From the NCBI GenBank assembly GCA_964590575.1, contig CAZPWM010000010.1, forward strand, positions 1 through 54,586: a stretch of DNA of 54,586 nucleotides, read 5' to 3'. Under the pieces are notes generated by a model. It was not told where the DNA came from. It saw only the letters and a list, made by a program, of their open reading frames with translations, and did no database searches. This document shows positions 15,849 through 36,190 of the stretch, piece after piece (the stretch's first letter is position 1; the number at the start of each line of letters is the position of its first letter). A program made the position numbers and the translations under genes. The DNA comes from an uncultured archaeon. Its GTDB lineage: Archaea; Asgardarchaeota; Thorarchaeia; Thorarchaeales; Thorarchaeaceae.

Positions 15849-16420
15849 GTCAATTAGTTCTCGTCTTTGGAGACGCCCATATTCCTTCCCGAAGAGACTG
15901 CATTCCTGAGGCATTCTATAATCACATACAACAGACCACCTATGACTTAGCTCTCATTACAGGAGATTTAGTACGTGAATCTGAGATGCGTTCTGCTCTT
16001 CCTCCCCTACCCAGAAGCTTTGTCGTTGTCGGGAACATGGATTATGGTAGCCAATATAACTTTCATGAACAGATTCAATTAGATGATTTCAACGTACTAC
16101 TTCTTCATGGGACACAACTACGACCACGTGGTAACATCAAACAACTATGGGCGATTATTCAAAAGATTGGAGCGGATGTAGCTATTCATGGACATACTCA
16201 TACAGCTTCCATTGAGCTTTACAAAGACCAATTGTTTCTGAATCCTGGAACAATCACAGGAGCCACTGGTGGGTGGGGCGGCAAGACCGATGCGAGTTTC
16301 ATCGAGCTTGAAGTGAGTAAGAATGAGTTATTGGTGAAACTATACCTCACTGACTGGAAAGTCGTGAAAGAATCGACTCTTCGATTTCAGAAACAAGAAC
16401 ACAAAATCCTGCGTTTCTAG
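15845..16420 (+). CDS. YfcE/Vps29-like metallophosphoesterase
   Basis: LVLVFGDAHIP.R, TGDL, GNMD, HG.Q..P.G, GHTH, NPG..TGA. Confidence 0.85.
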   Translation: MSQLVLVFGDAHIPSRRDCIPEAFYNHIQQTTYDLALITGDLVRESEMRSALPPLPRSFVVVGNMDYGSQYNFHEQIQLDDFNVLLLHGTQLRPRGNIKQLWAIIQKIGADVAIHGHTHTASIELYKDQLFLNPGTITGATGGWGGKTDASFIELEVSKNELLVKLYLTDWKVVKESTLRFQKQEHKILRF

Positions 16421-17034
16421 TATTCTCCCCAGGGATCCGGACTCAAGAGCCGCATGTAAATCCGCTTGAGAATATTGGCACTCTGAAGTACTGCAGTTTC
16501 AACTGTTCTCTGTCTATCAACGGTTTCTGATGATCCTTTGCCTGGACCAAGGATTTTTCCTAACCTGCCTTTCTTTGTTCCACTCTTCCCAGTCGTTTTT
16601 ACTTTCTCAGGAGTGACTTTTCCAATCTCCTCTTCAGGGAAGATATCCCGTGTGAATCTGAGTTCAGAAAAGAATGCAGATAGGGTTTCCTTGACTGCTA
16701 ATTTCTCCGGAGGTTCTTCTGGCAATTCAGACACTATGTTCAAAGCTCTCTTCCTGAGGTTTGTAGACAGGATTTCTTGAATCTCTTCTGCGAGGTCACG
16801 ATTCATTGCGCAAGCGATACCTATGTTGATCATGAGAATTCTAATCCGGTCAAGAAGGACTCCTGAGTCACTACCAATAAGTGACATACCCCTCATAGAC
16901 ACCAACCAGTCTTCGTAGGTCTGATTGACCATCAGCAAATCTTCTTCGAACTCGACCAATTTTTCCATCTCTCCAGGTGGAATCAATGAGCACCAAACTG
17001 TCATTGGGACATGGTCGTTGCTTTCTGGGGGCAT
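16417..17034 (-). CDS. Hypothetical protein
   Basis: Long ORF; start moved to MPPESN to avoid overlap with the divergent gene. Confidence 0.65.
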   Translation of the reverse strand: MPPESNDHVPMTVWCSLIPPGEMEKLVEFEEDLLMVNQTYEDWLVSMRGMSLIGSDSGVLLDRIRILMINIGIACAMNRDLAEEIQEILSTNLRKRALNIVSELPEEPPEKLAVKETLSAFFSELRFTRDIFPEEEIGKVTPEKVKTTGKSGTKKGRLGKILGPGKGSSETVDRQRTVETAVLQSANILKRIYMRLLSPDPWGEY

Positions 17035-17143
17035 GGTCTGGACCTTGGTATCATCCGTTTTCAGTATTACTTGTCTATGCTTTTTGCGTTGGTGAATTCC
17101 TTCTAATACTAGATTGACAAGCGTACTAGGGTTGGTGATTGGT

Positions 17144-17425
17144 GTGGTGAAGTACAAGGTTTCAATTGAAGTAATTGATATTCTGGGAGAAGGCAACTGC
17201 TCAATGGAACAGAAAGTGGGTGATACTTACAACTATCCTGAAGATAGAGGAAAAATGTGCCCTAGTTCGTTCTATATCCTCTTTCCGTGGATAATGGTAA
17301 TGGGGTCAGGTGGTAGTTTCACTGAGGAGGGAGATGGAAGTGACTTTATGACAACAGGTTGCCCTGATTATCTGCACCAGGTTGTATACAAGATTTCACG
17401 GAGAGAAGTTGATGAACAACCATAA
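17144..17425 (+). CDS. TIGR04076-like small protein
   Basis: G.C...KVGD, MCP..F..LFP and CPD motifs; GTG start after GGTGAT. Confidence 0.7.
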   Translation: MVKYKVSIEVIDILGEGNCSMEQKVGDTYNYPEDRGKMCPSSFYILFPWIMVMGSGGSFTEEGDGSDFMTTGCPDYLHQVVYKISRREVDEQP

Positions 17426-17792
17426 TCACGAAAATCGCTACTTCATCAGTACCGACATAGAGTTTGGTCCATTGCAACTGATTGACATCCCGAACCTGAT
17501 TGAGGAATCCGAAAAAGACTGGCAAAACTTCTCCCTCTGTGAGGTAAATGATTGTGTCGTTAGATTAGGTGTTATTCGTGGCGAGTTTCACTGGCATAAA
17601 CACGATAATGAAGACGAGTTCTTCTATGTGATTAACGGGTTATTGCAAATTGAAATAGAAGACAAGACCCACAATCTAAAACCCGGACAGGGCTTTATGG
17701 TGCCAAAAGGAACCCTCCATCGGACCAAAGCACCACACCGCACATCTATCTTGATGATTGAAGGGAGAACGGTTACTCCAACCGGTGATTAG
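17412..17792 (+). CDS. Cupin domain protein
   Basis: GEFHWHKHDNEDEFFYV..G, VPKG.LHRT. Confidence 0.9.
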   Translation: MNNHNHENRYFISTDIEFGPLQLIDIPNLIEESEKDWQNFSLCEVNDCVVRLGVIRGEFHWHKHDNEDEFFYVINGLLQIEIEDKTHNLKPGQGFMVPKGTLHRTKAPHRTSILMIEGRTVTPTGD

Positions 17793-18719: not shown

Positions 18720-18734
18720 TGGCACCGTGGTGGG
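18720..18734 (-). repeat. Degenerate tRNA 3'-end-like repeat (A0)
   Basis: Minus strand CCCACCACGGTGCCA then TTTCTTCAT; flank resembles that of A1. Confidence 0.4.
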
Positions 18735-18774
18735 CTAGCCACAATCAACATATGGGGTTTCCACTTCCCTAAAC

Positions 18775-19770
18775 TTGAAGAAAATGAGCGGGTTCAAAGT
18801 GGTCCTGGCAAGTGGTGCTGAGCATCTGAGAACAAGATTCTCTGAACTTGGGTTCCAAGTCTTCTCATCAGAGATGAACTTTGATGAAAAACGGTTCTTC
18901 CCTAACTCCGACCTCTATGTAAAAATAGCTAACATCGAAGAACTTGCTGACCAGAGGGTTGTTGTCGTTCAGAGCTGTACAGGTTCATCACCAGCTGCGA
19001 ATGAGTATTTTACGACATCTGACCGTATTCAAGAACTCATTCTTATCTTTGATATTCTAAAAAACCCCTGCAAGGTCGAAAAGATAGCTCACAAGACATA
19101 CAAAACCCACTCTCTAGCACAACCTAGAAGCATTGATGTTGTACTCACTTTCCAGCCTTTTGCACTTCAGGATAAAGCGTTCAGCACTGGAGAGGCAGTG
19201 TCAAGTCGGTGTGCAATGCAATCAATTGCAAATCTCTGTGATAGACTGTGGCTTGTAGAACCGGTTGTAGACAGAGCTCTGCCTTGGGTCGAAGAACTAG
19301 CTGCGCAAGGAAAGTATCAGATGATTAACTTCACTCAGGACATCATTGAATATGCCGCAGCTAAATTCGGGTTCACGGAATATGTCTTAACGGCTCCTGA
19401 TGAAGGCGCACAGAAAAGATTCGGGGTGCCTGGCTTTAGCAAACGCCGCTCTGATTCCTTTACGATAGATATGACAGGAGAGCTCGATGTTTCAGGCAAA
19501 AACGTCATCATTTTGGATGACCTCACTAAGAGTGGGAAGACGCTCCTAAGAGCTGCAGACATGATGCGAAATCAAGGAGCCGCTGATGTTGGGTTCATCG
19601 TCCTGCATGTAACACCTATTCGTGATGGGGGTGAGAGATTGTTGACAGACCTGATTGCTAAGAGCAACAACAAAATCATTACCTCAAATACCGTTCATAC
19701 TGTGGCTTTCTGTGATGAGAACCCAGAACTCGTGTATGACATAGTCGAGAAACTTGTAGACAATCTCTAG
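18775..19770 (+). CDS. Divergent ribose-phosphate pyrophosphokinase-like phosphoribosyltransferase
   Basis: FPNSDLYVKI, VVQS, ALQDKAF..GEAVS, APDEGA, IILDDLTKSGKTL PRPP-binding loop. Confidence 0.75.
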   Translation: MKKMSGFKVVLASGAEHLRTRFSELGFQVFSSEMNFDEKRFFPNSDLYVKIANIEELADQRVVVVQSCTGSSPAANEYFTTSDRIQELILIFDILKNPCKVEKIAHKTYKTHSLAQPRSIDVVLTFQPFALQDKAFSTGEAVSSRCAMQSIANLCDRLWLVEPVVDRALPWVEELAAQGKYQMINFTQDIIEYAAAKFGFTEYVLTAPDEGAQKRFGVPGFSKRRSDSFTIDMTGELDVSGKNVIILDDLTKSGKTLLRAADMMRNQGAADVGFIVLHVTPIRDGGERLLTDLIAKSNNKIITSNTVHTVAFCDENPELVYDIVEKLVDNL

Positions 19771-19791
19771 CTACATTGAAAGATGAAGAGA

Positions 19792-19806
19792 TGGCGCCGC
19801 CGGTAG
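19792..19806 (-). repeat. tRNA-Asn 3'-end fragment (A1)
   Basis: CTACCGGCGGCGCCA, 14/15 match to tRNA-Asn 26053-26067, followed by a pyrimidine tract. Confidence 0.9.
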
Positions 19807-19886
19807 TCACTCATCCAAAAATTGACTCAACTCAACCTTTGGCGATTCAACCCAATCGAAATTCTTGTCCTGAGTGACCAATGGTT
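19807..19886 (-). pseudogene. Possible C-terminal gene remnant (PIN-like tail) ending at A1
   Basis: Frame PLVTQDKNFDWVESPKVELSQFLDE*; its TGA abuts the repeat. Confidence 0.35.
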
Positions 19887-21353
19887 TTATTCCATCAAAC
19901 CCAATCTTGATAGTCTAGTTGAGCCGAAACCTAGGCTTGCCACCAAATCGTCGATGATTTGTTTGATTGGATCTGCGAAATACATCAGAAGGAAAATGAA
20001 AATGAAGATGGATATCATGATTGCCCATCTCATGTACCGTTCCCTGCGTTGATCTGAGAAATTGCGCGCCAGCTCTGCAAGGTCCCTCGCCCTAGTCCGA
20101 TAATACCACGCGAGGCCTCGATTGGTGATGGAATAACGCCTTTCTCGCTCAGCGATGAGCCCGCTCCTCTCGGCCTGTCTTATATTCTTCATAATGCCTC
20201 TCTGCTTTATGTTGTGGAATCCAATCACGGCTTGAACATCGTAGTACCGATGACCGAGGTTGACTCCTCTGAGAAAATCGTGTTCAATGACATCTGCTTC
20301 CTTGGGGCCGGTTGCGAGCCTTCCGAGAACCCAATACGTCATGAGGTCCTCATACATCTCATTTGCGCCGAGACGAATTGTGTCTACATCAATCTCGTCA
20401 CCTGCAGCTCGCAGTTCTCTGAGGGTAGATATGCTCTCCCATAGGATAATCCCGGATATCGCAAGCGCAACCAGCCCGTCTACAAAGTAGTATCCGAAGA
20501 TTGAGAAGGTGAAACCAATCATAACACCGTAGGCGACCTTGATGTGGGAGGTGTCCTCTTTGGCATCCCCAATTAAAGCCAAATTCCCTGAGCTCCGCCC
20601 GACCATCACCTTCAACCAGATGAGACCTCTATTGATTACTATGGACAAGAACTCTACATAATAGGCCTGAACCGACCATTGAACGGGTTCATTTGACAAT
20701 AGACCAGCAATTGCACCCACTGCAAGTAGTGCCCCAGTCATTGTCATTACTGTGATGATTGCTAGAGCGCCAAGTCTATCCCGCTTGTACTTGATGCTGA
20801 ATGCGATTATACCTACAACAAGAAGATCTGTCAGATTCTCAATGCCTTCGTTCAATATAGCATCACTATGAATTGACAGGCCAATCCAAATCTTCACCGA
20901 AGCCAGAAGAAGCAGAGCAAGCGTAGAGAGAACAAGTACAATACGCTCCGTAAGTAAACGCCTCATCCAGTACCCCTGATGGACTATCTCGAGCCTGCCA
21001 TATCGAATCGTTTCACGTCCACGATGACTGAGGCTATAACGACCTTCAGATTCTTGGATTAGGTCGTCATTCAAACCATGCTGGATGGCCTCATCAATGT
21101 CGATTGAGGTCATGGTGGGTCGTCGAAGCCTGAGTGCAAATATGCCGTCCAGATGGTCATAGAGTCCTTCGCGTGTATTGATTCCTTCGTGGATCGCACA
21201 TAGTATTGCATAGAGGAGTGAAATGGCCGGCTCACTCCTTAGAATGCTTCTAACTGGGAAACTGTAGTGTCCCTGTCTGATTTCTTGATGACTAAAGCTC
21301 CAGAGTTCTCTAAATGGGTCCGCGGAACCTTCAATCACCGGTGGATTAGCCAC
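19887..21353 (-). CDS. Cation diffusion facilitator-like membrane protein flanked by winged-helix-like domains
   Basis: Six TM segments with S.A(I)L.EG.E..TD and N.AL..DA.ED..H in CDF register; RYSLSHRG and RYSITNRG wing motifs. Confidence 0.65.
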   Translation of the reverse strand: MANPPVIEGSADPFRELWSFSHQEIRQGHYSFPVRSILRSEPAISLLYAILCAIHEGINTREGLYDHLDGIFALRLRRPTMTSIDIDEAIQHGLNDDLIQESEGRYSLSHRGRETIRYGRLEIVHQGYWMRRLLTERIVLVLSTLALLLLASVKIWIGLSIHSDAILNEGIENLTDLLVVGIIAFSIKYKRDRLGALAIITVMTMTGALLAVGAIAGLLSNEPVQWSVQAYYVEFLSIVINRGLIWLKVMVGRSSGNLALIGDAKEDTSHIKVAYGVMIGFTFSIFGYYFVDGLVALAISGIILWESISTLRELRAAGDEIDVDTIRLGANEMYEDLMTYWVLGRLATGPKEADVIEHDFLRGVNLGHRYYDVQAVIGFHNIKQRGIMKNIRQAERSGLIAERERRYSITNRGLAWYYRTRARDLAELARNFSDQRRERYMRWAIMISIFIFIFLLMYFADPIKQIIDDLVASLGFGSTRLSRLGLME

Positions 21354-21533
21354 TCGAAGGCCTCCATTCCAAGCGAATTAGCCAATAATACATCACTGCG
21401 CTGCTAAATATCTTATGCAGAGTGACATTCGGAGAAGGAGTGGACCATTCGGCGATACGACAGTCAGATTTGGTTATGATTAACAAAATTGGTTCTCTTG
21501 GTAAGGTTTTTTGTAAATTAGAAAGGAAAGAAA

Positions 21534-21548
21534 TGGCCCCGCCGGGAG
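21534..21548 (-). repeat. tRNA-Asn 3'-end fragment (A2)
   Basis: CTCCCGGCGGGGCCA, 14/15 match to the tRNA-Asn 3' end, followed by TTTCTTTCCTTT. Confidence 0.8.
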
Positions 21549-21596
21549 TTATGCCTCCAATAAACTGTGCAAAATGCGATGTCTTTCACAATCAGC

Positions 21597-23552
21597 TTAG
21601 GATGCTCTTCTTCGAATGTATCCAACTACGATAATTGTTATAGTCGCAATCACAGCAATTACTCCAAGACCTACTACAAGGGGGAACTCCCCGGCTATCT
21701 GAATGTTTCTGGTCGATAGAGAATGAATACCTTGCTCCGCTAGTTCGACAAGGATATAGTCATCATAGAGTAAGATCACCTCATCGGGCTCTCCTGTCAC
21801 TTCAAGAGTCAGAGTAGTCGTGCCATTTATCCACACGACTCTGTCATTCAGAACCTCACCCGCAGAGCCAAGGACTTTGATGGGAACCTGCTGTGAGTAA
21901 GAATATGGATTATAGACCTCATTTTCATCCTCAACGGTCACCAATAGAGTGCCCTCCTCTCTATCATAGACAGCTCCAGTGAATGAATAGTCAGGTAAGC
22001 GGGGATTGTTAAACCATGGTAGAAAGAACCAATCCAAAGACCCCCCACACACCGTCTCCAGCGCAGCTTGTAGACCTGCCAATGTGCCAACTCTGAAGTA
22101 ATTCTGCTTCAAGAAGAGCGAGAGGCCCTCGATAAACTTCTGGTGACCTATCTCGACACGCATCTTCTCAAGCACGAGTGGAGCCTTAACATACTCAAGG
22201 TATGTCACCAACTCAGGCATATCATAGTTTGACTGGTTTATTGCAGCGTCTATCCCATTTTCTATATAGAACACCCTCACAGTATCTAGATATCGATCAT
22301 ATTGGAAGTACTCCCAGTCTTGATGATAGTACTCGCCAAAGTAGTTGTGAGACCAGCAGGTCATTCCCTCGTCAAGAAAGCCCCAGTCAATGCTGTCTAT
22401 TCCCACAAGTTGCGACCACCATTGATGAATCACCTCATGAACAACCACTAACTCAAGATAATTGGGGGGTAGGTTTCCTAGTTTCATTGCCTGAAGGATG
22501 CCATTTGTTGCATACACCTGGCAGGGATATTCCATGCCGCCGTAGAATGCGAACTGCTCCACAACGTTGAGCGTTGAATAGGGATAGATGCCATAGGTTG
22601 TGTTGAAAAGCAATAGGGTTTCACTTGCCCAGTTCAGTACATCGTCTTCCCACTCTGTCTGAGAGTCTGGGATGTAAAAGCTTGATACCTTGACAGACCC
22701 TACCATCATAGACTCCATGACATAGTATCGAGAGGCTGAGAATGTGACCTCGCGTACCGGCAAGCCAGGACTGAAATGGTAAGTAGTGTCGCCTTCATCG
22801 CTATAGCTCTCAATTAATTGACCCGTTGCCGCGACCACCATGTCATTAGGGACTTCAACCAAGAACTCATAGAATGCCATATCAAGGTAGAAGGGGTCCC
22901 CGAAATTGACATACCCATCGGTGTTCCAGCCATCATACTCATCGTAGACGCATGGCATGGGATAGCAACTGGCAAACGTGAATATTCTCGATTGGTCGAT
23001 GTCACTACCCTGAGAGTTGGCTCTGTCTAGACCATCAGGTAGAGTGGTCTTGAATGAGATCTGAAACGAGGTGGTGCCACCTGATTCCACAGGCGCCGGA
23101 AGATTGACCCACATGATCTCGCCCTCCGACACGATATTGTAAGACAAAGGAACCTCAGGAGCATCGATTGTGGTCACATTGAAGATCTCGATGGCTCCCT
23201 GTCTACTAGTGTAATTCATACCGGAAGGATAGAGGTGGAACGGAATACTTGAGAAGGCAATTGGGTCGTCATTGTAATACTCAATGGATAGATTACCAGC
23301 AACAGTTGATTGAGTATCATCCAGCGTGACAGACAAATTGATGTGCGAGAAACTAGTCCCTGTGAAGTTTCCCCTTGAGAACCAGTTGTAGTCACCGAGG
23401 TCTGCCTGACTCAGCGAGGGCTGAATGTCTGTTCCCAGATTTCTCTGAAGGCTTGGTAGTGCCGAAACTGGAAGCATTATGGAAAAACCAGTGGACACAA
23501 TCATAAGAGCTATTGAGAAGACAAGGACTCTCTTCAAAATTACAACGACCAC
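21597..23552 (-). CDS. Secreted, membrane-anchored M1 family zinc aminopeptidase
   Basis: Signal peptide, GGMEYP, HEVIHQWW then LDEG gluzincin motif, Y.K, C-terminal TM followed by RRR. Confidence 0.9.
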   Translation of the reverse strand: MVVVILKRVLVFSIALMIVSTGFSIMLPVSALPSLQRNLGTDIQPSLSQADLGDYNWFSRGNFTGTSFSHINLSVTLDDTQSTVAGNLSIEYYNDDPIAFSSIPFHLYPSGMNYTSRQGAIEIFNVTTIDAPEVPLSYNIVSEGEIMWVNLPAPVESGGTTSFQISFKTTLPDGLDRANSQGSDIDQSRIFTFASCYPMPCVYDEYDGWNTDGYVNFGDPFYLDMAFYEFLVEVPNDMVVAATGQLIESYSDEGDTTYHFSPGLPVREVTFSASRYYVMESMMVGSVKVSSFYIPDSQTEWEDDVLNWASETLLLFNTTYGIYPYSTLNVVEQFAFYGGMEYPCQVYATNGILQAMKLGNLPPNYLELVVVHEVIHQWWSQLVGIDSIDWGFLDEGMTCWSHNYFGEYYHQDWEYFQYDRYLDTVRVFYIENGIDAAINQSNYDMPELVTYLEYVKAPLVLEKMRVEIGHQKFIEGLSLFLKQNYFRVGTLAGLQAALETVCGGSLDWFFLPWFNNPRLPDYSFTGAVYDREEGTLLVTVEDENEVYNPYSYSQQVPIKVLGSAGEVLNDRVVWINGTTTLTLEVTGEPDEVILLYDDYILVELAEQGIHSLSTRNIQIAGEFPLVVGLGVIAVIATITIIVVGYIRRRAS

Positions 23553-23694
23553 CTGTCACTTTATCCTGAAGAATCAGCTCAAAACGCATTAAGACTACCG
23601 ACTCAAGCAATCAAAAGGTGATTATGTGGATGAATGCTGGAATCTGTCTGTTTCTTCCTATCTTTGGCTATGATTGACAGACCATGAGAAGAGA

Positions 23695-23709
23695 TGGCGC
23701 CGCCGGTAG
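23695..23709 (-). repeat. tRNA-Asn 3'-end fragment (A3)
   Basis: CTACCGGCGGCGCCA followed by TCTCTTCTC. Confidence 0.9.
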
Positions 23710-23761
23710 CAAATATTGATGTGTCTTCAAAGCAATTCACATCAAGAAGGGAGTTTTAGAA

Positions 23762-24010
23762 ATGGAAGCAACTGAGAAATGTCCATCTTGTGGTGAGGAC
23801 ATGGACCCCGGTTTCATTGTGTCTCAAAGAACTATCTCTTGGTGCGACCTCGTTCCTAAAGTGATCTGTTACTGTGGAGAACCTCTGTCGAAGGGGTATG
23901 CTATCTGTGCATGTGTGTCTGGTTATCGATGTAAAAGATGCAAAATCATCCTTTATCAGGAAGTTGAAAAAGCACCAAGAAAGGAAACAGATGATTGGCC
24001 CGCCGGCTGA
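23762..24010 (+). CDS. Small Zn-ribbon protein (DUF6487-like)
   Basis: KCPSCGEDMDPGF...W...YRCKRCKII pattern. Confidence 0.7.
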   Translation: MEATEKCPSCGEDMDPGFIVSQRTISWCDLVPKVICYCGEPLSKGYAICACVSGYRCKRCKIILYQEVEKAPRKETDDWPAG

Positions 24011-24029
24011 CCCAAAAATGAATTAGAAG

Positions 24030-24044
24030 TGGCGCCGCCGGTAG
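24030..24044 (-). repeat. tRNA-Asn 3'-end fragment (A4)
   Basis: CTACCGGCGGCGCCA, 1 nt after the TAA of the 24046-24693 gene. Confidence 0.9.
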
Positions 24045-24045
24045 T

Positions 24046-24693
24046 TTATGAGATAATTCCTACCATCGCAGTTTCGATATACTTTAGTCTCTCAATGTGT
24101 TCATCGTTGTACACAAACTCGTATTCAGATTTGGGTACTGCTGCAAGTTTTCGTAATGCACTAAGGAATGAAGAATCACTTCTTGCAGCTTCCAAATCTG
24201 CTTCCATCTTCTTTGAGTTTGATTTCCTATGTTTCAAATAATAAATAATTCCTGAAACTATCATTATTGGGTATGATGCAAGAGCCATTTCAAGATTGTA
24301 AGGTATCGGTGGATATGATAATATATAGTCAATCACCTCAAAGCCCGTGAATGCTGATCCCCATAATATACTCGCAAACAATAGATAAAATGCTACCCGC
24401 TCTGAAAGGTCAACACACTGCTTTCTCCTCAGTTGCACCCTTATGTATGATAGGAGTTCAGAAGGATTCAGTGCATCTATTTGCCATTTTTCAAGAATGA
24501 GAATTTCCTTTCCCTCTTTATTCTTGACCATATATGGATCATTATCCAAATTCTCATCATCAAAGTGTTGATGTTCGACTATGCACTCCCTATAATTTGG
24601 ATCATCACTAAGAATTTCTTCTAATTGCTTGCATTTGTCATCTCGATAGAACCCACTATATTTTACTTCAGAACTATCGATATCAACACGCAT
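24046..24693 (-). CDS. Hypothetical membrane protein (2 TM)
   Basis: 215-aa AT-rich ORF with two hydrophobic segments; weak resemblance to an M48-like layout without HEXXH. Confidence 0.65.
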   Translation of the reverse strand: MRVDIDSSEVKYSGFYRDDKCKQLEEILSDDPNYRECIVEHQHFDDENLDNDPYMVKNKEGKEILILEKWQIDALNPSELLSYIRVQLRRKQCVDLSERVAFYLLFASILWGSAFTGFEVIDYILSYPPIPYNLEMALASYPIMIVSGIIYYLKHRKSNSKKMEADLEAARSDSSFLSALRKLAAVPKSEYEFVYNDEHIERLKYIETAMVGIIS

Positions 24694-24775
24694 TCTCTTT
24701 CACACCCACTCCACAATAACAGGAGTCACTTGAAAACTAATGAGGATTTCTGAAAAAGGAAAGTTAGAGGAGAAG

Positions 24776-24790
24776 TGGCGCCGCCGGTAG
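24776..24790 (-). repeat. tRNA-Asn 3'-end fragment (A5)
   Basis: CTACCGGCGGCGCCA immediately after the TAG of the 24791-25780 gene. Confidence 0.9.
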
Positions 24791-25780
24791 CTACTTCTTC
24801 GACTTCGCGAATCTACTTTCAAAAGCCATATCGAATGCATTATCAAAATACACTTGAGCTTGAGATACAGTTCTCGGATCGTTTGTACAGATTCCTGCCT
24901 CCAAATTCCTGTCCATGGAGGGCGCCACTAGATTTGCAGAACCAATGTAAAGTTCCTTGTCATCGACAATCACAATCTTTGCATGAAGATGGTCCGCTGT
25001 TTCGATACTGAACTTTCTTTTGTGAAATCCTCTGACTGTTTCCTCGTGGTATGGGTCATCACCCGCTCTTCGGGTCAGAATTCTAATTGATACGTTCCTT
25101 TCGTCCCTTACTTGAGTCAATTTATCTTCTATCTCTTTTATACCCCATATCCACGGAGAAGCAATGAGAATCGTCTTCTCCGCCTTATCAATCATCTCAA
25201 GAAGCTTGCCGAGTATTTCTCTGTCCTTTACAAAGGACACATCCGTGGATGTTGGTTCTGGATCCGGGATATCAACCAATTCCATGGCATAGGACTGGAC
25301 TTGTTCACGTATCTCATCAGCAATCCCTAAGACATCAGAATATCGACTCAGGTCGTATCTGTCATCAGAGAAATGCAGTCCGTTCTTTGCAATGTCCTCC
25401 AGCTGAGCAGACCACTCTTGCAACTGCTGCTTGGGCAAGTAGACCAATGGTTTCTCCAAGTCTTTCCATATCTCACGGAAATCACCCTGTATCTCCATGA
25501 TTTCATTATAGCGTTCCAAGTCATAATCGGTGGCTGCGTATTCCTCTGCAATCTTCACAATCCTAAAGAGCCTCTTCCCCCATCGTTCCAGAAGTTCTCT
25601 CTGCAACATTATTATGTCGCTATCTTGTTTTTCCTCCTTACATACGGAGCAACCTTCCACTTTGAGGTACCATTTTCCACAGTCTTTGCACTTGACGACT
25701 AGGCCTTGGTCACGCATTCCAAAGTGTTCTGCACAGAGTGGATAGAACCCACTTCGTTTTCCACATATCTGACAGACCAA
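24791..25780 (-). CDS. Zn-finger, tandem Nudix_N-like, phospholipase D (HKD) domain protein
   Basis: CxxC clusters; two W...L..IA....YDL.RY repeats; SPW and HAKIVIVD..YIGSANL..N.EAG single HKD motif. Confidence 0.75.
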   Translation of the reverse strand: MVCQICGKRSGFYPLCAEHFGMRDQGLVVKCKDCGKWYLKVEGCSVCKEEKQDSDIIMLQRELLERWGKRLFRIVKIAEEYAATDYDLERYNEIMEIQGDFREIWKDLEKPLVYLPKQQLQEWSAQLEDIAKNGLHFSDDRYDLSRYSDVLGIADEIREQVQSYAMELVDIPDPEPTSTDVSFVKDREILGKLLEMIDKAEKTILIASPWIWGIKEIEDKLTQVRDERNVSIRILTRRAGDDPYHEETVRGFHKRKFSIETADHLHAKIVIVDDKELYIGSANLVAPSMDRNLEAGICTNDPRTVSQAQVYFDNAFDMAFESRFAKSKK

Positions 25781-25856
25781 TCAAACCACCTCCGGTCCCG
25801 TTGATGACTAGGTCGTGTCCGGGTATTAAGACCATCGCCTTTTCACGAAACAACTC

Positions 25857-25873
25857 GACAGCAATGTTAATAT
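25857..25873 (+). promoter_or_regulatory. BRE/TATA-like promoter of tRNA-Asn
   Basis: ACAGCAATGTTAATAT about 30 nt upstream of the tRNA; the same motif is conserved upstream of both 5' fragments. Confidence 0.6.
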
Positions 25874-25898
25874 TGAAACTAGGAAAATCAGCCGAACA

Positions 25899-26067
25899 GC
25901 CGCCGTGGCTCAGTAGGTAGAGCGACAGTAGTTGTACGCGAACAGCGTCATACCGCTAAAGCCTGTTACCTTTCGATTCTGGTAATCGAGAGCCAGACAG
26001 TTGTTGGTCGGAGGTTCGAGAAACTTCATGACTTCCATGACGTTTGAAGACCCTCCCGGCGGCGCCA
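25899..26067 (+). tRNA. tRNA-Asn(GTT) with three introns
   Basis: Acceptor GCCGCCG/CGGCGGC, G73, CCA encoded. Removing about 25929-25961, 25969-25998 and 26021-26050 gives a 76-nt cloverleaf with GTT at 25965-25967. Confidence 0.92.
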
Positions 26068-26096: not shown

Positions 26097-26690
26097 TCAT
26101 CTCTCTCTACGGTCTAATTTCCTGCGAGTTTTTTCATCAAGTTCTCTTAGCCCCTTTTTGTACTCCTCAGATTTTTCATCTTCGGGAATCAGGTAGTGGA
26201 ATTGAGTGAATTCCCCATCTACTGTCTTGAAGAAATCGTCAACTCTGTCTGGAATATAGGGTACTAACTCCAAATCGTGCCCTCTTTCATGTAAAGCCTT
26301 GAGAACATCTCTTGTCCGAACTACACCGAGTGTTCCATCAGTCTTGGATTTACGTAGAATCTTTAGAAGGCACTTAGCCTTATCAGGTAAGTTACGGAGA
26401 ATCTCAGCTTCTTTTTCATTTAAGATACGGATGAACCAGACCGGCTTCCCTATTGAATCTTCAGAGCTATCATCATAATCAAGAATCTTGTCGACTATCC
26501 AATTATCAAGAGCGTATTCAATAACTGTGCTAGCATCTGTATTAGCTCCCGGGTTGTCTTGAAGCGTTTTATGAAGCCTATTCACCAAATCCCTCTTAGA
26601 CATCTGTTTCGTTTTTGTATTTTCCAGTAATTCAATGAGGATAGCGACAGCTTCAGATTCAGTTGTGTTCATTTTCCATCGTCCCACCAT
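26097..26690 (-). CDS. Hypothetical protein
   Basis: 197-aa ORF overlapping the end of the upstream gene; possible winged-helix segments. Confidence 0.65.
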   Translation of the reverse strand: MVGRWKMNTTESEAVAILIELLENTKTKQMSKRDLVNRLHKTLQDNPGANTDASTVIEYALDNWIVDKILDYDDSSEDSIGKPVWFIRILNEKEAEILRNLPDKAKCLLKILRKSKTDGTLGVVRTRDVLKALHERGHDLELVPYIPDRVDDFFKTVDGEFTQFHYLIPEDEKSEEYKKGLRELDEKTRRKLDRRER

Positions 26691-28720
26691 TTGTTTACTT
26701 CAAACTCGTGATCCCTAAATTGCTTCGTTGCCTCTGCTACATATTTCGGATGTTTCTTTATTATGTCCTTCATAATCTCTTTTTTGACTGCATCATTGGG
26801 AGCCGCTATCATTCCTAGCTTAACTGATTCGAGTAATGTTTCTGGTTCAGCTGTCCAAGCAACAGAAACTCGACTTGTTCTCTCGTGAAAACGAATTGTA
26901 TATGGTTTCGAACGATAGTCAATTCCCAAACTTCTAACAATCTCAATTTGATCCTGAATCAATCTATTGGGATTCTCATATATGCAATTCCACAGGCTTT
27001 CTGCAGTATTTCGAACTTGAGTAGATTCTGAATGCCTTAAATCTTGTAACTTACCATAGTTAAGTACCCAACTGTAACTTTCCTTTTTGCCACTATCTTT
27101 AATCAAATCGATTTCTCTTTTCCCGACTTTCGGTTCGATTCCATAGACTTCAGCTTTACTAGCAGCATCAAGGATGTTGGTATGTGTCCACTGTATTCGC
27201 TTCTTGCTAATAGTTCCATCTTGGGGAACCAAATCTTCAATCAATGCGCATCTTGCCCTCGTTGAGAACTCCTTGATTGCTGAAAAAAGTCCTGGATTTT
27301 GGACAGATCTGTCTCCTGAAGGAATACCAAGACGTTCTAGCATTACGCCCAGTGGTGTTGGGAGGTACGAAACATATAGATTATCGCGCTCTCTGAACTT
27401 AGGGTTAAGTTTGATATCTCCAAAAATCTGCAGATCCCTCTCAACAATTCTAATTCTGCTCATTCTTGATTCAGCGTACTCCAAAGTTCCATTTGGTTTG
27501 AGGTGGCAATCGCTTATAGCTATTGCAGTAAGTCGAGATAAAGCCACCTCGAATTCTTCCCCCTCTGGAAATCTTGGATTTGTAATTCCTCCTCTCCCAC
27601 TAGCTTTAGTAAGCTTTGATACTTCTCCATTAAGATCGCATAGAGTCTTCCCGGATACGTCATTCATCAAGTTGACATAATCTCCACGAATTCGTTGAAG
27701 TTCATGATTGAAACAGGAATACTTCGAGTCTTCCACAATCATCTGAGGGAGTAGTTCATGCAAATGCTTCACAATCGCGCCGCAGTTATTATCTTGAAGT
27801 TCTAGAGATTCTCCAACATCTTCTACGTACCTATCAAATGTTGTTTCGTCACGAAAGTAATAGTATAGACTATCATAGACATTTTCAAGACTCGTTGAAT
27901 CAAGGTCGGGTTTCCAAACATAGATTCGTTCCTCAACTAGCCCAAATCGAACTTCCTCATTTTCGTCAAGACTTTCTTTTGCTTGGTAAAATGCCTGTTT
28001 GAATGCATCAAGTTCCTGAGACGAAACTCCCAAGCTCCTATTGATGTCTATGTAGAACGTCCTTTCTGACTCTGGTAGACTGTTACCGATTTCCGATAAA
28101 AGCTCAGTAAGATTCTCTCGATTCAATTCCTTAGAATCTAGATCTGAAAAAACATCTCTCACCCAACTTTCATCCAGTTCTTGAATTCTAGTTGGCACCA
28201 CCTCCACTATGTCTTGTTCTTCGCGATTCTCACGAAGCTTGAGTTCCGAATGATTTTCTACAGCGTGGTCGAACTCCTCTTTCGTTCGAATCTCACCGAG
28301 ACGAGGTTCCTGCTCTTCTTCATGTCCCTCCAATGATTTATGTGTGAGTTTCTCCTTTTCTGCAACCTTCTCCTCCGAATCGTCAATGTTCGCCAGAGCC
28401 TCCCTGAGCTTGTCTTCAGTTGACTCGCTGGCTCTCTCCATCTCATTTAGTTCCTCAAAAGCATCTTCCAGCTTACTGCTTATTTGCCCCTCTTCTGCCT
28501 CGCTTTTCTTCAGTTTCTCCATTGCATACTGTAGCAGCTCAGAGGCCGATAGTTCATCTACCTCCTCAGATTCGGAACTCTCATTCTGCGCCTCACGAAT
28601 ACGTCGACTTTCCGAGACCAACTCGGCAGCAGTCAAGTCCTCAGCATGGGTTTCCTCAGATTCCTCACCGTACTCCCTTCTACGACGCCTCACACCCTCA
28701 CCGGATACACCCTCCACCAT
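26669..28720 (-). CDS. Protein with acidic coiled-coil N-terminus and C-terminal LAGLIDADG-like endonuclease domain
   Basis: LSRLTAIAISDCHL and ALIEDLVPQDGTI about 90 aa apart, with LERLGIPSGDR between them, as in two-motif LAGLIDADG domains. Confidence 0.6.
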   Translation of the reverse strand: MVEGVSGEGVRRRRREYGEESEETHAEDLTAAELVSESRRIREAQNESSESEEVDELSASELLQYAMEKLKKSEAEEGQISSKLEDAFEELNEMERASESTEDKLREALANIDDSEEKVAEKEKLTHKSLEGHEEEQEPRLGEIRTKEEFDHAVENHSELKLRENREEQDIVEVVPTRIQELDESWVRDVFSDLDSKELNRENLTELLSEIGNSLPESERTFYIDINRSLGVSSQELDAFKQAFYQAKESLDENEEVRFGLVEERIYVWKPDLDSTSLENVYDSLYYYFRDETTFDRYVEDVGESLELQDNNCGAIVKHLHELLPQMIVEDSKYSCFNHELQRIRGDYVNLMNDVSGKTLCDLNGEVSKLTKASGRGGITNPRFPEGEEFEVALSRLTAIAISDCHLKPNGTLEYAESRMSRIRIVERDLQIFGDIKLNPKFRERDNLYVSYLPTPLGVMLERLGIPSGDRSVQNPGLFSAIKEFSTRARCALIEDLVPQDGTISKKRIQWTHTNILDAASKAEVYGIEPKVGKREIDLIKDSGKKESYSWVLNYGKLQDLRHSESTQVRNTAESLWNCIYENPNRLIQDQIEIVRSLGIDYRSKPYTIRFHERTSRVSVAWTAEPETLLESVKLGMIAAPNDAVKKEIMKDIIKKHPKYVAEATKQFRDHEFEVNKWWDDGK

Positions 28721-28728
28721 GAAACCCC

Positions 28729-32427: not shown

Positions 32428-32502
32428 ATCAGATCTGGATGGATTAATTTTCTAATGTTAGCAAAGGATGTGATGGAAAAAACAGTTAGTGATGTAACCC
32501 TG

Positions 32503-32572
32503 CTACCAACTGAGCCACGGCGGCATGTTCTCGAGGTCACCCTTCAGAATCGAATATTAACATTACTGTTTA
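32503..32572 (-). repeat. tRNA-Asn promoter plus 5' fragment (B1)
   Basis: Minus strand GCCGCCGTGGCTCAGTTGGTAG (32503-32524), 21/22 match to tRNA nt 1-22; upstream ACAGTAATGTTAATATT; 70-bp direct repeat with B2. Confidence 0.9.
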
Positions 32573-34233: not shown

Positions 34234-34288
34234 CTAATAAAGTGTTTGAAAACCTTCACAACAAATAATCTGATTTTAAAAGATAGAA

Positions 34289-34358
34289 CTACCTACTGAG
34301 CCACGACGGCTTGTTCTCGAGGTCACGCTTCGGAATCGAATATTAAGATTGCTGTTTA
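34289..34358 (-). repeat. tRNA-Asn promoter plus 5' fragment (B2)
   Basis: Minus strand GCCGTCGTGGCTCAGTAGGTAG (34289-34310), 21/22 match to tRNA nt 1-22; upstream ACAGCAATCTTAATATT. Confidence 0.9.
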
Positions 34359-36182: not shown

Positions 36183-36190
36183 CTCGAATA

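What the first reader, a model, noticed from the sequence alone, without database searches (positions are those of the whole stretch)
18720..25898. Integron-like array of single-gene cassettes delimited by tRNA-Asn 3'-end repeats
Seen: TGGCGCCGCCGGTAG occurs at 19792, 23695, 24030 and 24776, with a variant at 21534 and a degenerate copy at 18720. On the minus strand this is the last 15 nt of the nearby tRNA-Asn including CCA (14/15 identity), followed by a pyrimidine-rich, terminator-like tract. Each interval (about 0.3-2.2 kb) holds exactly one intact gene, and the genes are unrelated: Prs-like, CDF-like, M1 peptidase, Zn ribbon, membrane protein, PLD fusion. Known: integration at tRNA 3' ends leaves att fragments, but normally around large integrase-carrying elements. 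Inference: serial site-specific capture of small non-autonomous gene cassettes at a tRNA by a recombinase acting in trans, analogous to an integron.
Basis: partly seen in the sequence, partly recalled or inferred. Interest (0 to 1): 0.9.

Follow-up and report, generated by a model that had tools for sequence, protein, structure and literature searches.

The report
Single-gene cassette arrays at tRNA ends
In this Thorarchaeota (Asgard archaeon) genome, single genes sit in a row, each separated by a short copy of the end of a tRNA gene; the row differs between related genomes and its units are exchanged between lineages, much like an integron, but no known recombination enzyme is in sight.

Summary
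TGGCGCCGCCGGTAG is exact at 19792, 23695, 24030 and 24776, with a 2-mismatch copy at 21534. It occurs nowhere else in the 3.4-Mb assembly.

- **Repeat:** it is the reverse complement of the last 15 nt (with CCA) of a three-intron tRNA-Asn at 25899-26067. On the minus strand a pyrimidine tract follows each copy.
- **Units:** each interval holds one gene.
- **Relatives:** 19 of 27 other genomes of the genus carry the repeat, often in arrays. The flanks are conserved, a sister genus has an empty site, and the contents differ.
- **Exchange:** homology between shared cassettes stops at the repeat. The peptidase and CDF cassettes are 85-90% identical to copies in genomes whose core gene is 68-70% identical.
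- **Other tRNAs:** similar arrays sit at tRNA-Leu and on a third contig of this genome.
here the repeats are inverted relative to the intact tRNA. Their cognate tRNA appears disrupted, leaving 5' fragments at 32500-32571 and 34286-34357.
- **Integron features:** no recombinase adjoins any array; this assembly holds one unlinked resolvase. No attC-like fold or gene co-orientation was found.

Best reading: repeat-dependent serial insertion and exchange of single-gene cassettes by an enzyme acting in trans, not yet identified.

The parts
18720..18734 (-). possible decayed repeat copy (10 of 15 bases) at the distal end of the array
   Evidence: read; preceded by the purine tract AAAATGAAGAAA; not statistically supported on its own
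18775..19770 (+). cassette gene: phosphoribosyltransferase-like, 331 aa
   Evidence: Pfam PF00156; divergent paralogue (51% aa) on contig C65; tracks the core genome in relatives (67-77% nt)
19792..19806 (-). repeat R, exact (CTACCGGCGGCGCCA on the minus strand) followed by a pyrimidine tract
19887..21353 (-). cassette gene: cation-efflux (CDF) family, 488 aa
   Evidence: Pfam PF01545; 87-90% nt identical to copies in distant lineages L066, L091, L093 whose core gene is 69-70% identical
21534..21548 (-). repeat R, variant with 2 mismatches
   Evidence: the orthologous copy is also degenerate in L066, L070, L054 and L094
21597..23552 (-). cassette gene: M1-family peptidase, 651 aa
   Evidence: Pfam PF01433; cassette homology W 21525-23706 vs L066 runs from repeat to repeat; identities
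23695..23709 (-). repeat R, exact; lies between divergently transcribed genes
   Evidence: homology with other genomes breaks just after this repeat
23762..24010 (+). cassette gene: DUF6487 zinc-ribbon protein, 82 aa; recurs in most arrays
   Evidence: Pfam; W 23689-24049 aligns to L006 and W 23695-24044 to L002, repeat to repeat
24030..24044 (-). repeat R, exact
24046..24693 (-). cassette gene: 215-aa membrane protein of no known family; recurs in most arrays
   Evidence: no Pfam or PADLOC hit
24776..24790 (-). repeat R, exact; probably the 3' end left from the disrupted ancestral tRNA-Asn
   Evidence: same strand as the 5' fragments at 32500-32571 and 34286-34357
24791..25780 (-). gene: zinc ribbon + PLD-family nuclease-like protein, 329 aa (NucT/DrmC-like)
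   Evidence: stop codon abuts the repeat
25899..26067 (+). intact tRNA-Asn(GTT) with three introns; a different allele (T stem GGAGG/CCTCC) and opposite strand from the repeats
   Evidence: the only complete copy in the assembly
26097..31461 (-). three-gene block next to the tRNA 3' end: 197 aa, 683 aa (no family), 910-aa HerA-like ATPase; shared with G005 and partly with G002
32500..32571 (-). promoter plus first 22 nt of a tRNA-Asn gene (5' fragment), then unrelated sequence and a T6 run
   Evidence: 96% identical to the promoter and 5' end of the G018 tRNA-Asn
32758..33969 (-). single gene (MFS transporter, 403 aa) between the two 5' fragments
34286..34357 (-). second promoter + 5' tRNA-Asn fragment, direct repeat of the first
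34380..35570 (-). single gene (GNAT/Eis-like acetyltransferase with SCP2 domain, 396 aa) beyond the second 5' fragment
15845..17792 (.). conserved left flank (metallophosphoesterase, 259-aa protein, 103-aa protein, cupin)
   Evidence: synteny in L001-L004, L015, L016; Pfam
35709..36982 (-). conserved right flank (157-aa protein and ZIP zinc transporter), which adjoins the tRNA 5' side in relatives with the simple arrangement

Best explanation
This is a tRNA-anchored cassette array: a hypervariable island made of single-gene modules.

**Module structure.** Read on the window's minus strand, each module begins with a copy of the last 12-15 nt of tRNA-Asn (CCA included) plus a pyrimidine-rich trailer. 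After that come the gene's own promoter and one gene, in either orientation.

**Proposed mechanism.** Modules are inserted one after another at the tRNA 3' end. They are later lost, reordered and exchanged between Thorarchaeota lineages by recombination at these repeats. This is most simply explained by integration and excision of circles that each carry one repeat.

**The enzyme.** It is not encoded in or next to the arrays, so it must act in trans. It may come from an unbinned mobile element or belong to an unrecognised family.

**This window.** The array's original tRNA-Asn (minus strand) has been split. Its promoter and first 22 nt remain at 32500-32571, with a second copy at 34286-34357. 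Its 3' end survives as the repeat at 24776-24790. A 7.7-kb block now lies between them and carries a different, intact tRNA-Asn allele in the opposite orientation.

**Shown:** the repeats, their uniqueness to the locus, one gene per unit, variable content with breakpoints at the repeats, cassette identities at odds with the core genome, and the same design at other tRNAs.

**Inferred:** site-specific recombination, circular intermediates, action in trans, and the history of the tRNA disruption.
For: **Non-random and locus-specific.** 7 matches against 0.18 expected. At <=2 mismatches all 6 sites in the 3.4-Mb assembly lie in this locus. The 11-mer core occurs only there.

**Conserved across species.** 19 of 27 other genomes of the genus carry the 15-mer at <=1 mismatch, often 3-5 copies within a few kb and often at contig ends. 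Further arrays appear in metagenome contigs, for example L121 with 5 exact copies and L123 with 6.

**Repeat is kept independently of the resident tRNA.** It stays CTACCGGCGGCGCCA even where the resident tRNA end differs: the window has CTCCC..., G017 has CTCCCGATGGCGCC, and G005 lacks CCA.

**An island between conserved flanks.** A sister genus (L016) has tRNA-Asn directly between the ZIP-transporter side and the left-flank genes, with no cassettes. Genus members have 2-6 cassettes there.

**One gene per unit.**
- tRNA-Asn arrays: 24 of 27 intervals, 309-2523 bp.
- tRNA-Leu arrays: 22 of 25 intervals.

**Modularity.**
- Zinc-ribbon cassette homology runs repeat to repeat (W 23689-24049 vs L006; W 23695-24044 vs L002), and the cassette has different neighbours in six genomes.
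- At the peptidase cassette, five genomes share sequence up to the end of the repeat and diverge just after it.
- Order is peptidase then CDF in L066, but CDF then peptidase here.

**Horizontal exchange.**
- Where the core gene is 68-70% identical (L066, L070, L091, L093): peptidase cassette 85-90%, CDF cassette 87-90%.
- Where the core gene is about 80% identical (L049, L068, L094): peptidase cassette 79-80%.

**The pyrimidine tract travels with the cassette** and follows nearly every repeat (0.86 vs 0.52). This fits each cassette having once supplied the tRNA's trailer. All 29 tRNA genes checked have encoded CCA and such a trailer.

**Generality.**
- Exact 22-nt tRNA-Leu 3'-end repeats form arrays on C19 (5 copies) and C4.
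- The same is seen in G014, G015 and G017, and in another genus, G220.
- A third array lies on C69.

**Cargo is accessory or defence-like**. Examples are a beta-lactamase-fold protein, APH, methyltransferase, M55 peptidase, OLD nuclease with AbiV, and a PLD nuclease.

**Assembly.** Independent Logan contigs bridge the junctions.
Against: **No recombinase found.**
- This assembly (91% complete): PF00589 0 hits; an HMM built from 15 tyrosine recombinases of the genus gave a best E of 0.048 over 10,512 ORFs; Cas1 0; RVT_1 0; IS110 0; Y1 transposase 0; one small resolvase on C123, unlinked.
- Across the genus: tyrosine recombinases in 9 of 28 genomes and resolvases in 8 of 28. Neither occurs in G014, G027, G016, G017, G021, G002 or G005, all of which have arrays.
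- The 15 recombinase contigs of the genus carry no copy of either repeat and no tRNA.
- No tyrosine recombinase in any array locus fetched.
- None of 47 array-region proteins scanned against Pfam (7; 10 each; a few lie just outside the repeats) has a recombinase or transposase domain.

**No excision or circle junction shown.** Only contigs could be laid.

**Several specificities would be needed.** Arrays at several tRNAs with different repeat sequences would need several recombinases or a generic mechanism.

**Orientation in this window.** The repeats are inverted relative to the only intact tRNA-Asn, so the array is not in the product configuration of integration into that gene. The disruption history is a reconstruction.

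**Repeats do decay.** There are 2-3 mismatches in all four inverted copies of G027, so not every array is active.

**Data quality.** All genomes are metagenome-assembled.
Confidence: 0.55

Rival explanations
1. Same architecture, but no dedicated enzyme. Cassettes are gained, lost and swapped by the cell's general homologous recombination. It uses the 15-22-bp repeats, and the conserved tRNA exons, as short homology arms after DNA uptake from relatives (Campbell-type insertion and loop-out).
For: - No recombinase of any known family is linked to the arrays.
- The repeats' inner boundary lies 1-2 nt inside the last exon in both tRNAs. For tRNA-Asn the T-loop intron is at 59/60 and the repeat starts at 62. 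For tRNA-Leu the intron is at about 53/54 and the repeat starts at 54/55.
- The 5' fragments end at the D-arm intron site.
- This boundary pattern is what homology limited to conserved exons would give, since the introns differ between species.
- It works for any tRNA.
Against: - 12-22 bp is very short for homologous recombination.
- It does not explain how a gene first acquires a tRNA-end repeat plus trailer.
- It does not explain why only tRNA 3' ends, and not other short repeats, delimit units.
- The asparagine and leucine arrays share almost no cassette families: 3 weak protein pairs, none clearly cassette to cassette.
Confidence: 0.15
2. The repeats are ordinary att scars of conventional integrative elements (viruses, plasmids, islands) that entered the tRNA one after another. 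Each then decayed until one gene was left.
For: - Integration at tRNA 3' ends with partial tRNA duplications is common in archaea. Passages of van der Gulik et al. (10.1101/2022.07.05.498093) describe 9-23-kb elements with 44-bp repeats, and an inversion that separated partial and full copies.
- Prochlorococcus islands hold scattered partial tRNAs from serial integration (passages of 10.1101/2020.12.28.424599).
- One duplication in this genome (C6 25941/30275) looks conventional: 4.3 kb apart, identity of at least 34 nt.
Against: - 46 of 52 intervals hold exactly one intact gene.
- No integrase fragments were found in any array locus or in 47 array-region proteins scanned.
- The same small units recur intact in several genomes with the same boundaries.
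- The repeat is more conserved (many exact copies across species) than the flanking genes, which are 65-82% identical.
Confidence: 0.1
3. Each repeat is a target-site duplication. It would be made by a transposase or casposase-like integrase that cuts the tRNA 3' end with a 15-22-nt stagger and inserts any gene-sized DNA, as a CRISPR repeat is duplicated at each spacer insertion.
For: - Identical short direct repeats with unrelated DNA between them.
- Genes in either orientation (16 vs 15 and 13 vs 17).
- No attC-like structure.
- The tRNA could serve as a 'leader'.
- Casposons are known to target tRNA 3' ends with 14-15-bp duplications (recalled from the literature, not from a call).
Against: - No Cas1 in the genome.
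- No terminal inverted repeats: local score 5.9 against 6.4 in the control.
- Repeats differ from the resident tRNA end in the window and in G017.
- The pyrimidine tract and the repeat travel with the cassette between genomes.
Confidence: 0.08
4. The repeat is a cis-acting signal, such as a terminator or RNA-processing or protein-binding site borrowed from the tRNA end. It would be kept because it serves the neighbouring genes, and the array would be a cluster of ordinary genes.
For: - The repeat plus pyrimidine tract resembles the end and trailer of every tRNA gene in this genome.
- It directly follows the stop codons of the genes at 24046-24693 and 24791-25780.
Against: - The copy at 23695 lies between two divergent gene starts.
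- Gene orientation relative to the repeat is random.
- The motif is absent from the rest of the genome.
- Content and order vary between genomes, with breaks at the repeat.
Confidence: 0.05

Closest known systems
Integrons, including integrase-less cassette clusters (CALINs) reported in Asgard archaea (Ghaly et al. 2022, PMC9668308; passages seen)
   Same: - Arrays of mostly single-gene cassettes, each bounded by a recombination-type site.
- Variable content between relatives.
- Accessory or defence-type cargo.
- Arrays often found without an integrase.
   Different: - The site is 12-22 nt of a tRNA 3' end plus a pyrimidine trailer, not a 50-150-nt folded attC.
- The anchor is a tRNA gene, not attI beside intI.
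- No IntI or other tyrosine recombinase.
- Genes lie in either orientation and appear to have their own promoters.
- Several anchors per genome, each with its own repeat.
Tycheposon-built genomic islands of Prochlorococcus (Hackl et al., bioRxiv 10.1101/2020.12.28.424599; passages seen)
   Same: - Islands next to tRNA genes.
- Serial integration at one tRNA that pushes older insertions outward.
- Partial tRNAs scattered through the island.
- Several tRNAs used per genome.
- Cargo for adaptation and defence.
   Different: - Tycheposons carry tyrosine recombinases and replication modules and are several kb long.
- Here no integrase-bearing element was found, units are 0.3-2.5 kb with one gene, and the repeats are regularly spaced at every gene boundary.
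Conventional archaeal integrative elements at tRNA genes (van der Gulik et al., 10.1101/2022.07.05.498093, abstract and passages seen; aloposons and HeimV1 in Heimdallarchaeum, PMC8813620, passages seen)
   Same: - Duplication of the tRNA 3' part as direct repeats.
- Later inversion can put partial and full copies on opposite strands, as in this window.
   Different: Those elements are 9-44 kb, have repeats of about 44 bp, and carry integrases or viral genes.
Cis-mobilisable elements and tandem accretion at att sites in bacteria (recalled, not from a call)
   Same: Integrase-less DNA bounded by att sites, which a related element's integrase can move in trans.
   Different: - They are described as decayed conjugative elements of several kb.
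- They are not reported as regular arrays of single genes at several tRNAs.
Casposons and CRISPR arrays (recalled, not from a call)
   Same: - Short identical direct repeats separating unrelated inserts next to a fixed 'leader'.
- tRNA 3' ends are used as targets by some casposons.
   Different: - No Cas1.
- No terminal inverted repeats.
- The inserts are whole genes.
- The repeat travels with the insert.

Membership tests
Integron | Integron integrase (IntI, a tyrosine recombinase) next to the array or in the genome | tested here: not met
   PF00589 gave 0 hits in the assembly. A genus-specific HMM gave a best E of 0.048. None in any array locus. The assembly is 91% complete, so absence is not proven.
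Integron | attC sites: imperfect palindromes that fold as single strands | tested here: not met
   95-nt stretches around all five repeats fold no better than shuffles (z from -0.78 to +1.24). The conserved unit is 12-15 nt plus a pyrimidine tract.
Integron | Cassettes co-oriented and mostly promoterless, read from a common promoter | tested here: not met
   Gene orientation relative to the repeat is 16 same and 15 opposite (Asn), and 13 same and 17 opposite (Leu).
Integron | Array of mostly single-ORF cassettes, each bounded by the recombination site, variable between relatives | tested here: met
   24 of 27 and 22 of 25 intervals hold one gene. Content and order differ between genomes.
tRNA-targeting integrative element or genomic island (including tycheposon-type) | Inserted DNA flanked by direct repeats identical to the 3' part of the target tRNA | tested here: met
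   The repeats are direct and start at the tRNA's own 3' end in G014, G018 and G017. In the window they are direct with the 5' fragments of the disrupted tRNA but inverted relative to the intact tRNA.
tRNA-targeting integrative element or genomic island (including tycheposon-type) | Element-encoded integrase and other mobility or replication genes | tested here: not met
   47 array-region proteins scanned (a few lie just outside the repeats); none is a recombinase, replicase or capsid protein. No tyrosine recombinase in any array locus.
Casposon / CRISPR-like target duplication | Cas1-family integrase | tested here: not met
   PF01867 gave 0 hits in the assembly. Not searched in relatives.
Casposon / CRISPR-like target duplication | Terminal inverted repeats on the inserted element | tested here: not met
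   First 40 nt against the reverse complement of the last 40 nt in 52 cassettes: mean local score 5.94, against 6.37 for mismatched ends.
REP-like or terminator-like dispersed repeat | Copies scattered over the genome at many gene ends | tested here: not met
   All 6 copies at <=2 mismatches lie in this locus. Analogous repeats of other tRNAs are likewise clustered beside their tRNA.
Site-specific recombination system (any family) | Excised circles or empty sites joined at one repeat within a population | not testable with these tools
   Only Logan contigs were served, not reads. One back-joint in run X5 (21422 to 19789) is better read as tandem related cassettes.

The most novel reading that the evidence does not exclude
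Thorarchaeota may possess a previously undescribed gene-capture system that uses the 3' ends of several tRNA genes as integron-like platforms.

A recombinase of an unrecognised family, or one guided by the tRNA's own 3' end pairing with the repeat, would insert and excise single-gene cassettes. Each cassette would carry a 12-22-nt tRNA-end tag plus a pyrimidine trailer.

One generic mechanism would then serve tRNA-Asn, tRNA-Leu and other tRNAs. It would also explain why no tyrosine or serine recombinase, Cas1, reverse transcriptase or IS110/IS200-type enzyme accompanies the arrays.
Probability: 0.25. Interest if true: 0.9.

Novelty: new variant of a known kind. Interest (0 to 1): 0.74.

Why it matters
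Asgard archaea have large, gene-rich genomes with much horizontally acquired DNA. How single genes enter and circulate in them is poorly known.

These arrays show a concrete route. Gene-sized modules tagged with a tRNA end accumulate at tRNA genes, differ between species, and cross genus boundaries. Cassettes are 85-90% identical where core genes are 68-70% identical.

If an enzyme is found, it would be a second, independent invention of the integron principle, or a new recombinase class. It would have a compact 12-22-bp site and no requirement for a folded attC.

The boundaries of the repeats also coincide, within 1-2 nt, with tRNA intron positions. This bears on the old idea that archaeal tRNA introns and gene integration interact.

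Practically, such arrays break metagenome assemblies (many repeats lie at contig ends). They also hide multi-intron tRNAs from standard finders.

Tried and rejected
**Chance or misassembly.** Rejected. Shuffles, uniqueness to the locus, recurrence in 19 of 27 genus genomes and bridging contigs from three runs all argue against it.

**RNA-mediated origin** (a cDNA of mature tRNA with added CCA, or a primer-binding-site and polypurine-tract analogy). Set aside for three reasons. CCA and the pyrimidine trailer are genome-encoded at all 29 tRNA genes checked. The repeat unit crosses the tRNA/trailer boundary. No reverse transcriptase was found.

**Split-tRNA or alternative 3'-exon reading.** The repeats start 1-2 nt inside the last exon, and their upstream sequences are unrelated. 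No support.

**PLD-family protein at 24791-25780 as the recombinase.** It resembles NucT/DrmC nucleases. Among the fetched loci, homologues appear only in G021 and in L097. Treated as cargo.

**The 215-aa membrane protein and the zinc-ribbon protein as array 'core' functions.** They recur in most arrays, and the former is confined to this archaeal family (14 of 201 genomes sampled in the phylum). Nothing indicates DNA chemistry.

**The 683-aa protein beside the tRNA.** No Pfam, PDB or PADLOC match. There is a weak LAGLIDADG-like lead at 0.85, below the tool's reliability line. It is a multi-copy family present in 17 of 28 genus genomes but absent from the array-rich G014, G016 and G018. Not pursued.

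**Viral contigs.**
- The asparagine repeat plus trailer hit 12 contigs. Eleven are one bacterial prophage coding context and one is unrelated. None is tRNA-like.
- The leucine repeat gave 0 hits.

**Metagenome contigs.** 27 loci were returned. Those with G+C of 64-72% are chance hits. Most of the low-G+C ones are more Thorarchaeota-like arrays without a recombinase.

**Complete Thorarchaeota chromosomes of other genera.** Only the baseline tRNA-Leu copies, no arrays. They could not settle whether a recombinase is truly absent.

**Reads.** Only contigs were available. Parts without cover in run X5 (about 23.5-25.5 kb, 28.8-29.4 kb and 31.4-32.8 kb) are not evidence. The X5 back-joint 21422 to 19789, with loose ends at 19836 and 21465, suggests a different junction at the CDF cassette in a related strain. 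It does not show a circle.

**Other limits.**
- Supplementary files of papers were not consulted. Supplementary tables of the papers on tRNA fragments and on archaeal integrons might list similar loci.
- Literature searches returned no description of single-gene arrays bounded by tRNA 3' ends in archaea. This covers only the held library and those terms.

Full report
**1. The observation**

The 15-mer TGGCGCCGCCGGTAG is exact at 19792, 23695, 24030 and 24776 on the + strand. A 2-mismatch copy lies at 21534, and a 1-mismatch copy lies on the other strand at 26053-26067. That is 7 matches at up to 3 mismatches against 0.18 expected, and no shuffle reached 7. The seventh match, at 29955 with 3 mismatches, lies inside a long ORF and is probably chance.

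In the whole assembly (3.40 Mb, 194 contigs, 91% complete; the window is all of contig C10), every copy at up to 2 mismatches lies in this locus. The 11-nt core occurs nowhere else.

**2. The tRNA**

ARAGORN finds no tRNA in the window. Rfam finds two others at 39.2 and 39.9 kb and gives only a 14.9-bit partial hit here.

A relative has an intronless tRNA-Asn (L009 5106-5181, anticodon loop CTGTTAA). Aligned to it, window 25899-26067 is a tRNA-Asn(GTT) with three introns, at about 30/31, 37/38 and 59/60. The stretch folds with a closed acceptor stem. Removing the inferred introns in a script gave the same sequence as the relative, apart from the T stem and one ambiguous base.

It is the only complete tRNA-Asn in the assembly. 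It lies on the + strand, whereas the repeats are tRNA 3' ends on the - strand.

**3. The repeat unit**

On the minus strand the unit is CTACCGGCGGCGCCA followed by a pyrimidine tract (consensus CTTCTTC). Sequence upstream of it is unrelated between copies.
- In more distant lineages the conserved core shrinks to CCGGCGGCGCCA plus the tract.
- Across 52 cassettes, the first 10 nt after a repeat are 86% pyrimidine, against 52% before the next repeat. There are no terminal inverted repeats.
- All 29 tRNA genes checked in this genome encode CCA followed by such a trailer. The unit is thus a DNA copy of 'tRNA end plus trailer'.
- The surrounding DNA does not fold better than shuffles.

**4. Genes in the window's array**

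Each interval holds one ORF:

| Coordinates | Strand | Product |
|---|---|---|
| 18775-19770 | + | phosphoribosyltransferase-like |
| 19887-21353 | - | CDF transporter |
| 21597-23552 | - | M1 peptidase |
| 23762-24010 | + | DUF6487 zinc ribbon |
| 24046-24693 | - | 215-aa membrane protein, no family |
| 24791-25780 | - | zinc ribbon + PLD nuclease-like |

The repeat at 23695 lies between two divergent gene starts, so it is not simply a terminator.

**5. Relatives**

Record titles name the organisms Candidatus Thorarchaeota.

Of 27 other genomes of the genus, 19 carry the 15-mer at up to 1 mismatch. Several have 3-5 copies within a few kb, and many copies lie at contig ends.

Mapping 16 loci gave the following.
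- **Flanks.** The left flank is conserved (metallophosphoesterase, cupin and neighbours), as is the right flank (a 157-aa protein and a ZIP transporter).
- **Empty site.** A sister genus (L016) has tRNA-Asn directly between these flanks with no cassette.
- **Simple arrangement.** In G014, G018, G017, G023 and G024 the array starts at the tRNA's own 3' end, in direct orientation.
- **Inverted arrangement.** In the window, G005, G002, G027 and G021 the tRNA is inverted relative to the array. The inversion is therefore not an assembly error.
- **Metagenome contigs.** They add more arrays, for example L121 with four exact copies plus an inverted tRNA, and L123 with six copies.

**6. One gene per unit**

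With a mechanical gene call, 24 of 27 intervals in asparagine arrays hold one gene, two hold two and one holds three. Interval size is 309-2523 bp, median 788 bp. Gene orientation relative to the repeat is 16 same and 15 opposite.

**7. Modularity and exchange**

- **Zinc-ribbon cassette.** It aligns repeat to repeat between genomes (W 23689-24049 vs L006; W 23695-24044 vs L002) and has different neighbours in six genomes.
- **Peptidase cassette.** At its upstream end, five genomes share sequence through the pyrimidine/purine tract and the repeat, then diverge immediately.
- **Order.** It differs between genomes: peptidase then CDF in L066, CDF then peptidase here.
- **Identities at odds with the core genome**:

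| Compared loci | Core gene (762-aa protein) | Peptidase cassette | CDF cassette |
|---|---|---|---|
| L066, L070, L091, L093 | 68-70% nt | 85-90% | 87-90% |
| L049, L068, L094 | about 80% nt | 79-80% | not present |

- The phosphoribosyltransferase and GNAT genes track the core.
- I compared pairwise identities only and built no trees.

**8. The disrupted cognate tRNA**

On the minus strand, the same strand as the repeats, the window holds two roughly 72-nt direct repeats at 32500-32571 and 34286-34357. Each consists of a tRNA promoter and the first 22 nt of tRNA-Asn.
- They are 94-96% identical to the promoter and 5' end of the G018 gene. They differ from the leader of the window's intact tRNA.
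- They flank single genes: an MFS transporter and an Eis-like acetyltransferase.
- G002 has the same layout: an inverted tRNA, a relative of the 683-aa protein, then a 5' fragment facing the ZIP side.

My reconstruction, which is inference, runs as follows. The original tRNA-Asn was on the minus strand, with its 3' end at 24776-24790. A block of about 7.7 kb now separates its ends. The block carries the PLD gene, a foreign tRNA-Asn allele, and a module of a 197-aa protein, a 683-aa protein and a HerA-like ATPase.

The fragments end at the D-arm intron site seen in other alleles. The 3' repeats start 2 nt inside the last exon.

**9. Not only tRNA-Asn**

- **tRNA-Leu, this genome.** On C19, a tRNA-Leu(GAG) is followed by four further exact copies of its last 22 nt, TCAAATCTCGCCCTCCGCACCA. 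Each has a pyrimidine tract, and each interval of 400-605 bp holds one small gene. C4 has one such unit.
- **tRNA-Leu, other genomes.** Every genome of the family has 2-4 copies from its tRNA-Leu genes. G000 (8), G014 (8), G015 (13) and G220 of another genus (10) have excess copies in arrays.
- **Census.** 22 of 25 leucine intervals hold one gene, counting two intervals that include tRNA sequence.
- **A third array.** It lies on C69 (four copies, one gene per interval). Single duplications lie on C57, C32 and C6.
- **Boundary.** The leucine repeat starts 1 nt inside the last exon of that tRNA.
- **Separate pools.** The asparagine and leucine arrays share almost no cassette families.

**10. The missing enzyme**

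- **This assembly.** No PF00589. Nothing was found with an HMM built from 15 recombinases of the genus (best E 0.048 over 10,512 ORFs). No Cas1, reverse transcriptase, IS110 or Y1 transposase. There is one small resolvase on an unrelated contig.
- **The genus.** Tyrosine recombinases occur in 9 of 28 genomes and resolvases in 8 of 28. Neither occurs in G014, G027, G016, G017, G021, G002 or G005, which have arrays.
- **Recombinase contigs.** The 15 in the genus hold neither repeat nor a tRNA.
- **Array-region proteins.** None of 47 scanned (a few lie just outside the repeats) is a recombinase. No array locus has one.
- **Caveat.** All genomes are metagenome-assembled, and mobile elements are often not binned. 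A trans-acting integrase on a virus or plasmid remains the simplest guess.
- **Collections searched.** Viral contigs gave nothing relevant.

**11. Population data**

Fifteen runs hold part of the stretch, mostly salt-marsh metagenomes, but only as contigs. Contigs of X1, X2 and X4 bridge all repeats and the tRNA junction.

In X5, a related strain, one contig joins 21422 back to 19789, with loose ends at 19836 and 21465. I read this as a different junction, probably tandem CDF-like cassettes. It is not a circle.

**12. Comparison with what is known**

- **Integrons.** The architecture matches in one respect: arrays of single-gene units bounded by a site, variable between relatives. It fails the three other defining features tested (integrase, attC fold, co-orientation).
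- **Archaeal integrons.** They are reported with classical attC sites and do not involve tRNA in the passages seen (PMC9668308).
- **Tycheposon islands.** This is the nearest known process: serial integration at tRNA genes that leaves partial tRNAs. Those elements carry integrases and are much larger.
- **Other archaeal tRNA-targeting elements.** They are 9-44 kb with repeats of about 44 bp.
- **Literature.** My searches found no description of arrays like these.

**13. Verdict**

The feature is real, conserved and general. Single-gene cassettes tagged by tRNA 3' ends accumulate at several tRNA genes of Thorarchaeota and are exchanged between lineages.

I rate it a new variant of a known kind (tRNA-anchored integration islands, integron-like arrays). 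There is a substantial chance that the enzyme is new.

Noticed in passing
window 25899-26067; L001, L002, L005, L007-L009, L011, L014-L016: The tRNA-Asn gene has between 0 and 3 introns in different species of one genus, at D-arm, anticodon-stem, anticodon-loop and T-loop positions. G018 has an intronless copy 1.2 kb downstream of a decayed intron-bearing copy with the same promoter. Standard tRNA finders miss the three-intron form.
   Followed up: partly
window 32500-32571 and 34286-34357 (minus strand): Orphan tRNA promoters with the first 22 nt of tRNA-Asn. One is followed by a T6 run; the other points into an MFS transporter gene. They might still be transcribed or drive the neighbouring gene.
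   Followed up: partly
window 26097-31461 (minus strand): A module of a 197-aa protein, a 683-aa protein of no known family and a 910-aa HerA-like ATPase lies next to the tRNA 3' end. The 683-aa family has up to 7 copies per genome in 17 of 28 genus genomes, and a fragment lies beside the tRNA in G017. There is only a weak LAGLIDADG-like lead. It may be a defence system or a mobile module.
   Followed up: partly
genome contig C19 22487-24542; C4 7638-8438; C69 160-2473; C57 772-2532; C32 18384-21569; C6 25941-30288: Further tRNA 3'-end repeat arrays or single duplications elsewhere in the same genome: tRNA-Leu(GAG), another tRNA-Leu, and tRNAs not identified. The C6 pair has a longer identity (at least 34 nt, 4.3 kb apart) and looks like a conventional integrated element.
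   Followed up: partly
whole genome (29 tRNA genes): Every tRNA gene checked encodes its CCA end and is followed by a pyrimidine-rich trailer.
   Followed up: no
genus-wide: 19 of 28 genomes of the genus show no tyrosine recombinase at all, so no XerA-type enzyme was detected, and 20 of 28 show no resolvase. This may reflect incomplete assemblies or a real loss.
   Followed up: no
genome contigs C102 (1078, 1947, 4155) and C137 (6602): Four copies of a conserved element of about 70 nt (...AAAAGGGTGCTCAACA...GGGAAAGGTCCCGTTAGCCAACCCCGCCC...), spaced 0.9-2.2 kb apart on C102. Its nature is unknown.
   Followed up: no
window 18775-19770 and 19887-21353: The phosphoribosyltransferase-like and CDF cassette genes have divergent paralogues elsewhere in the genome (51% aa on C65, 46% aa on C12). 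The cassettes therefore carry second copies of housekeeping-type functions.
   Followed up: no
window 23996-24010: The last codons of the zinc-ribbon gene read TGGCCCGCCGGCTGA, a near-copy of the repeat with one base missing, 20 nt from the true repeat. In relatives the same codons are less repeat-like, so this is probably coincidence.
   Followed up: partly
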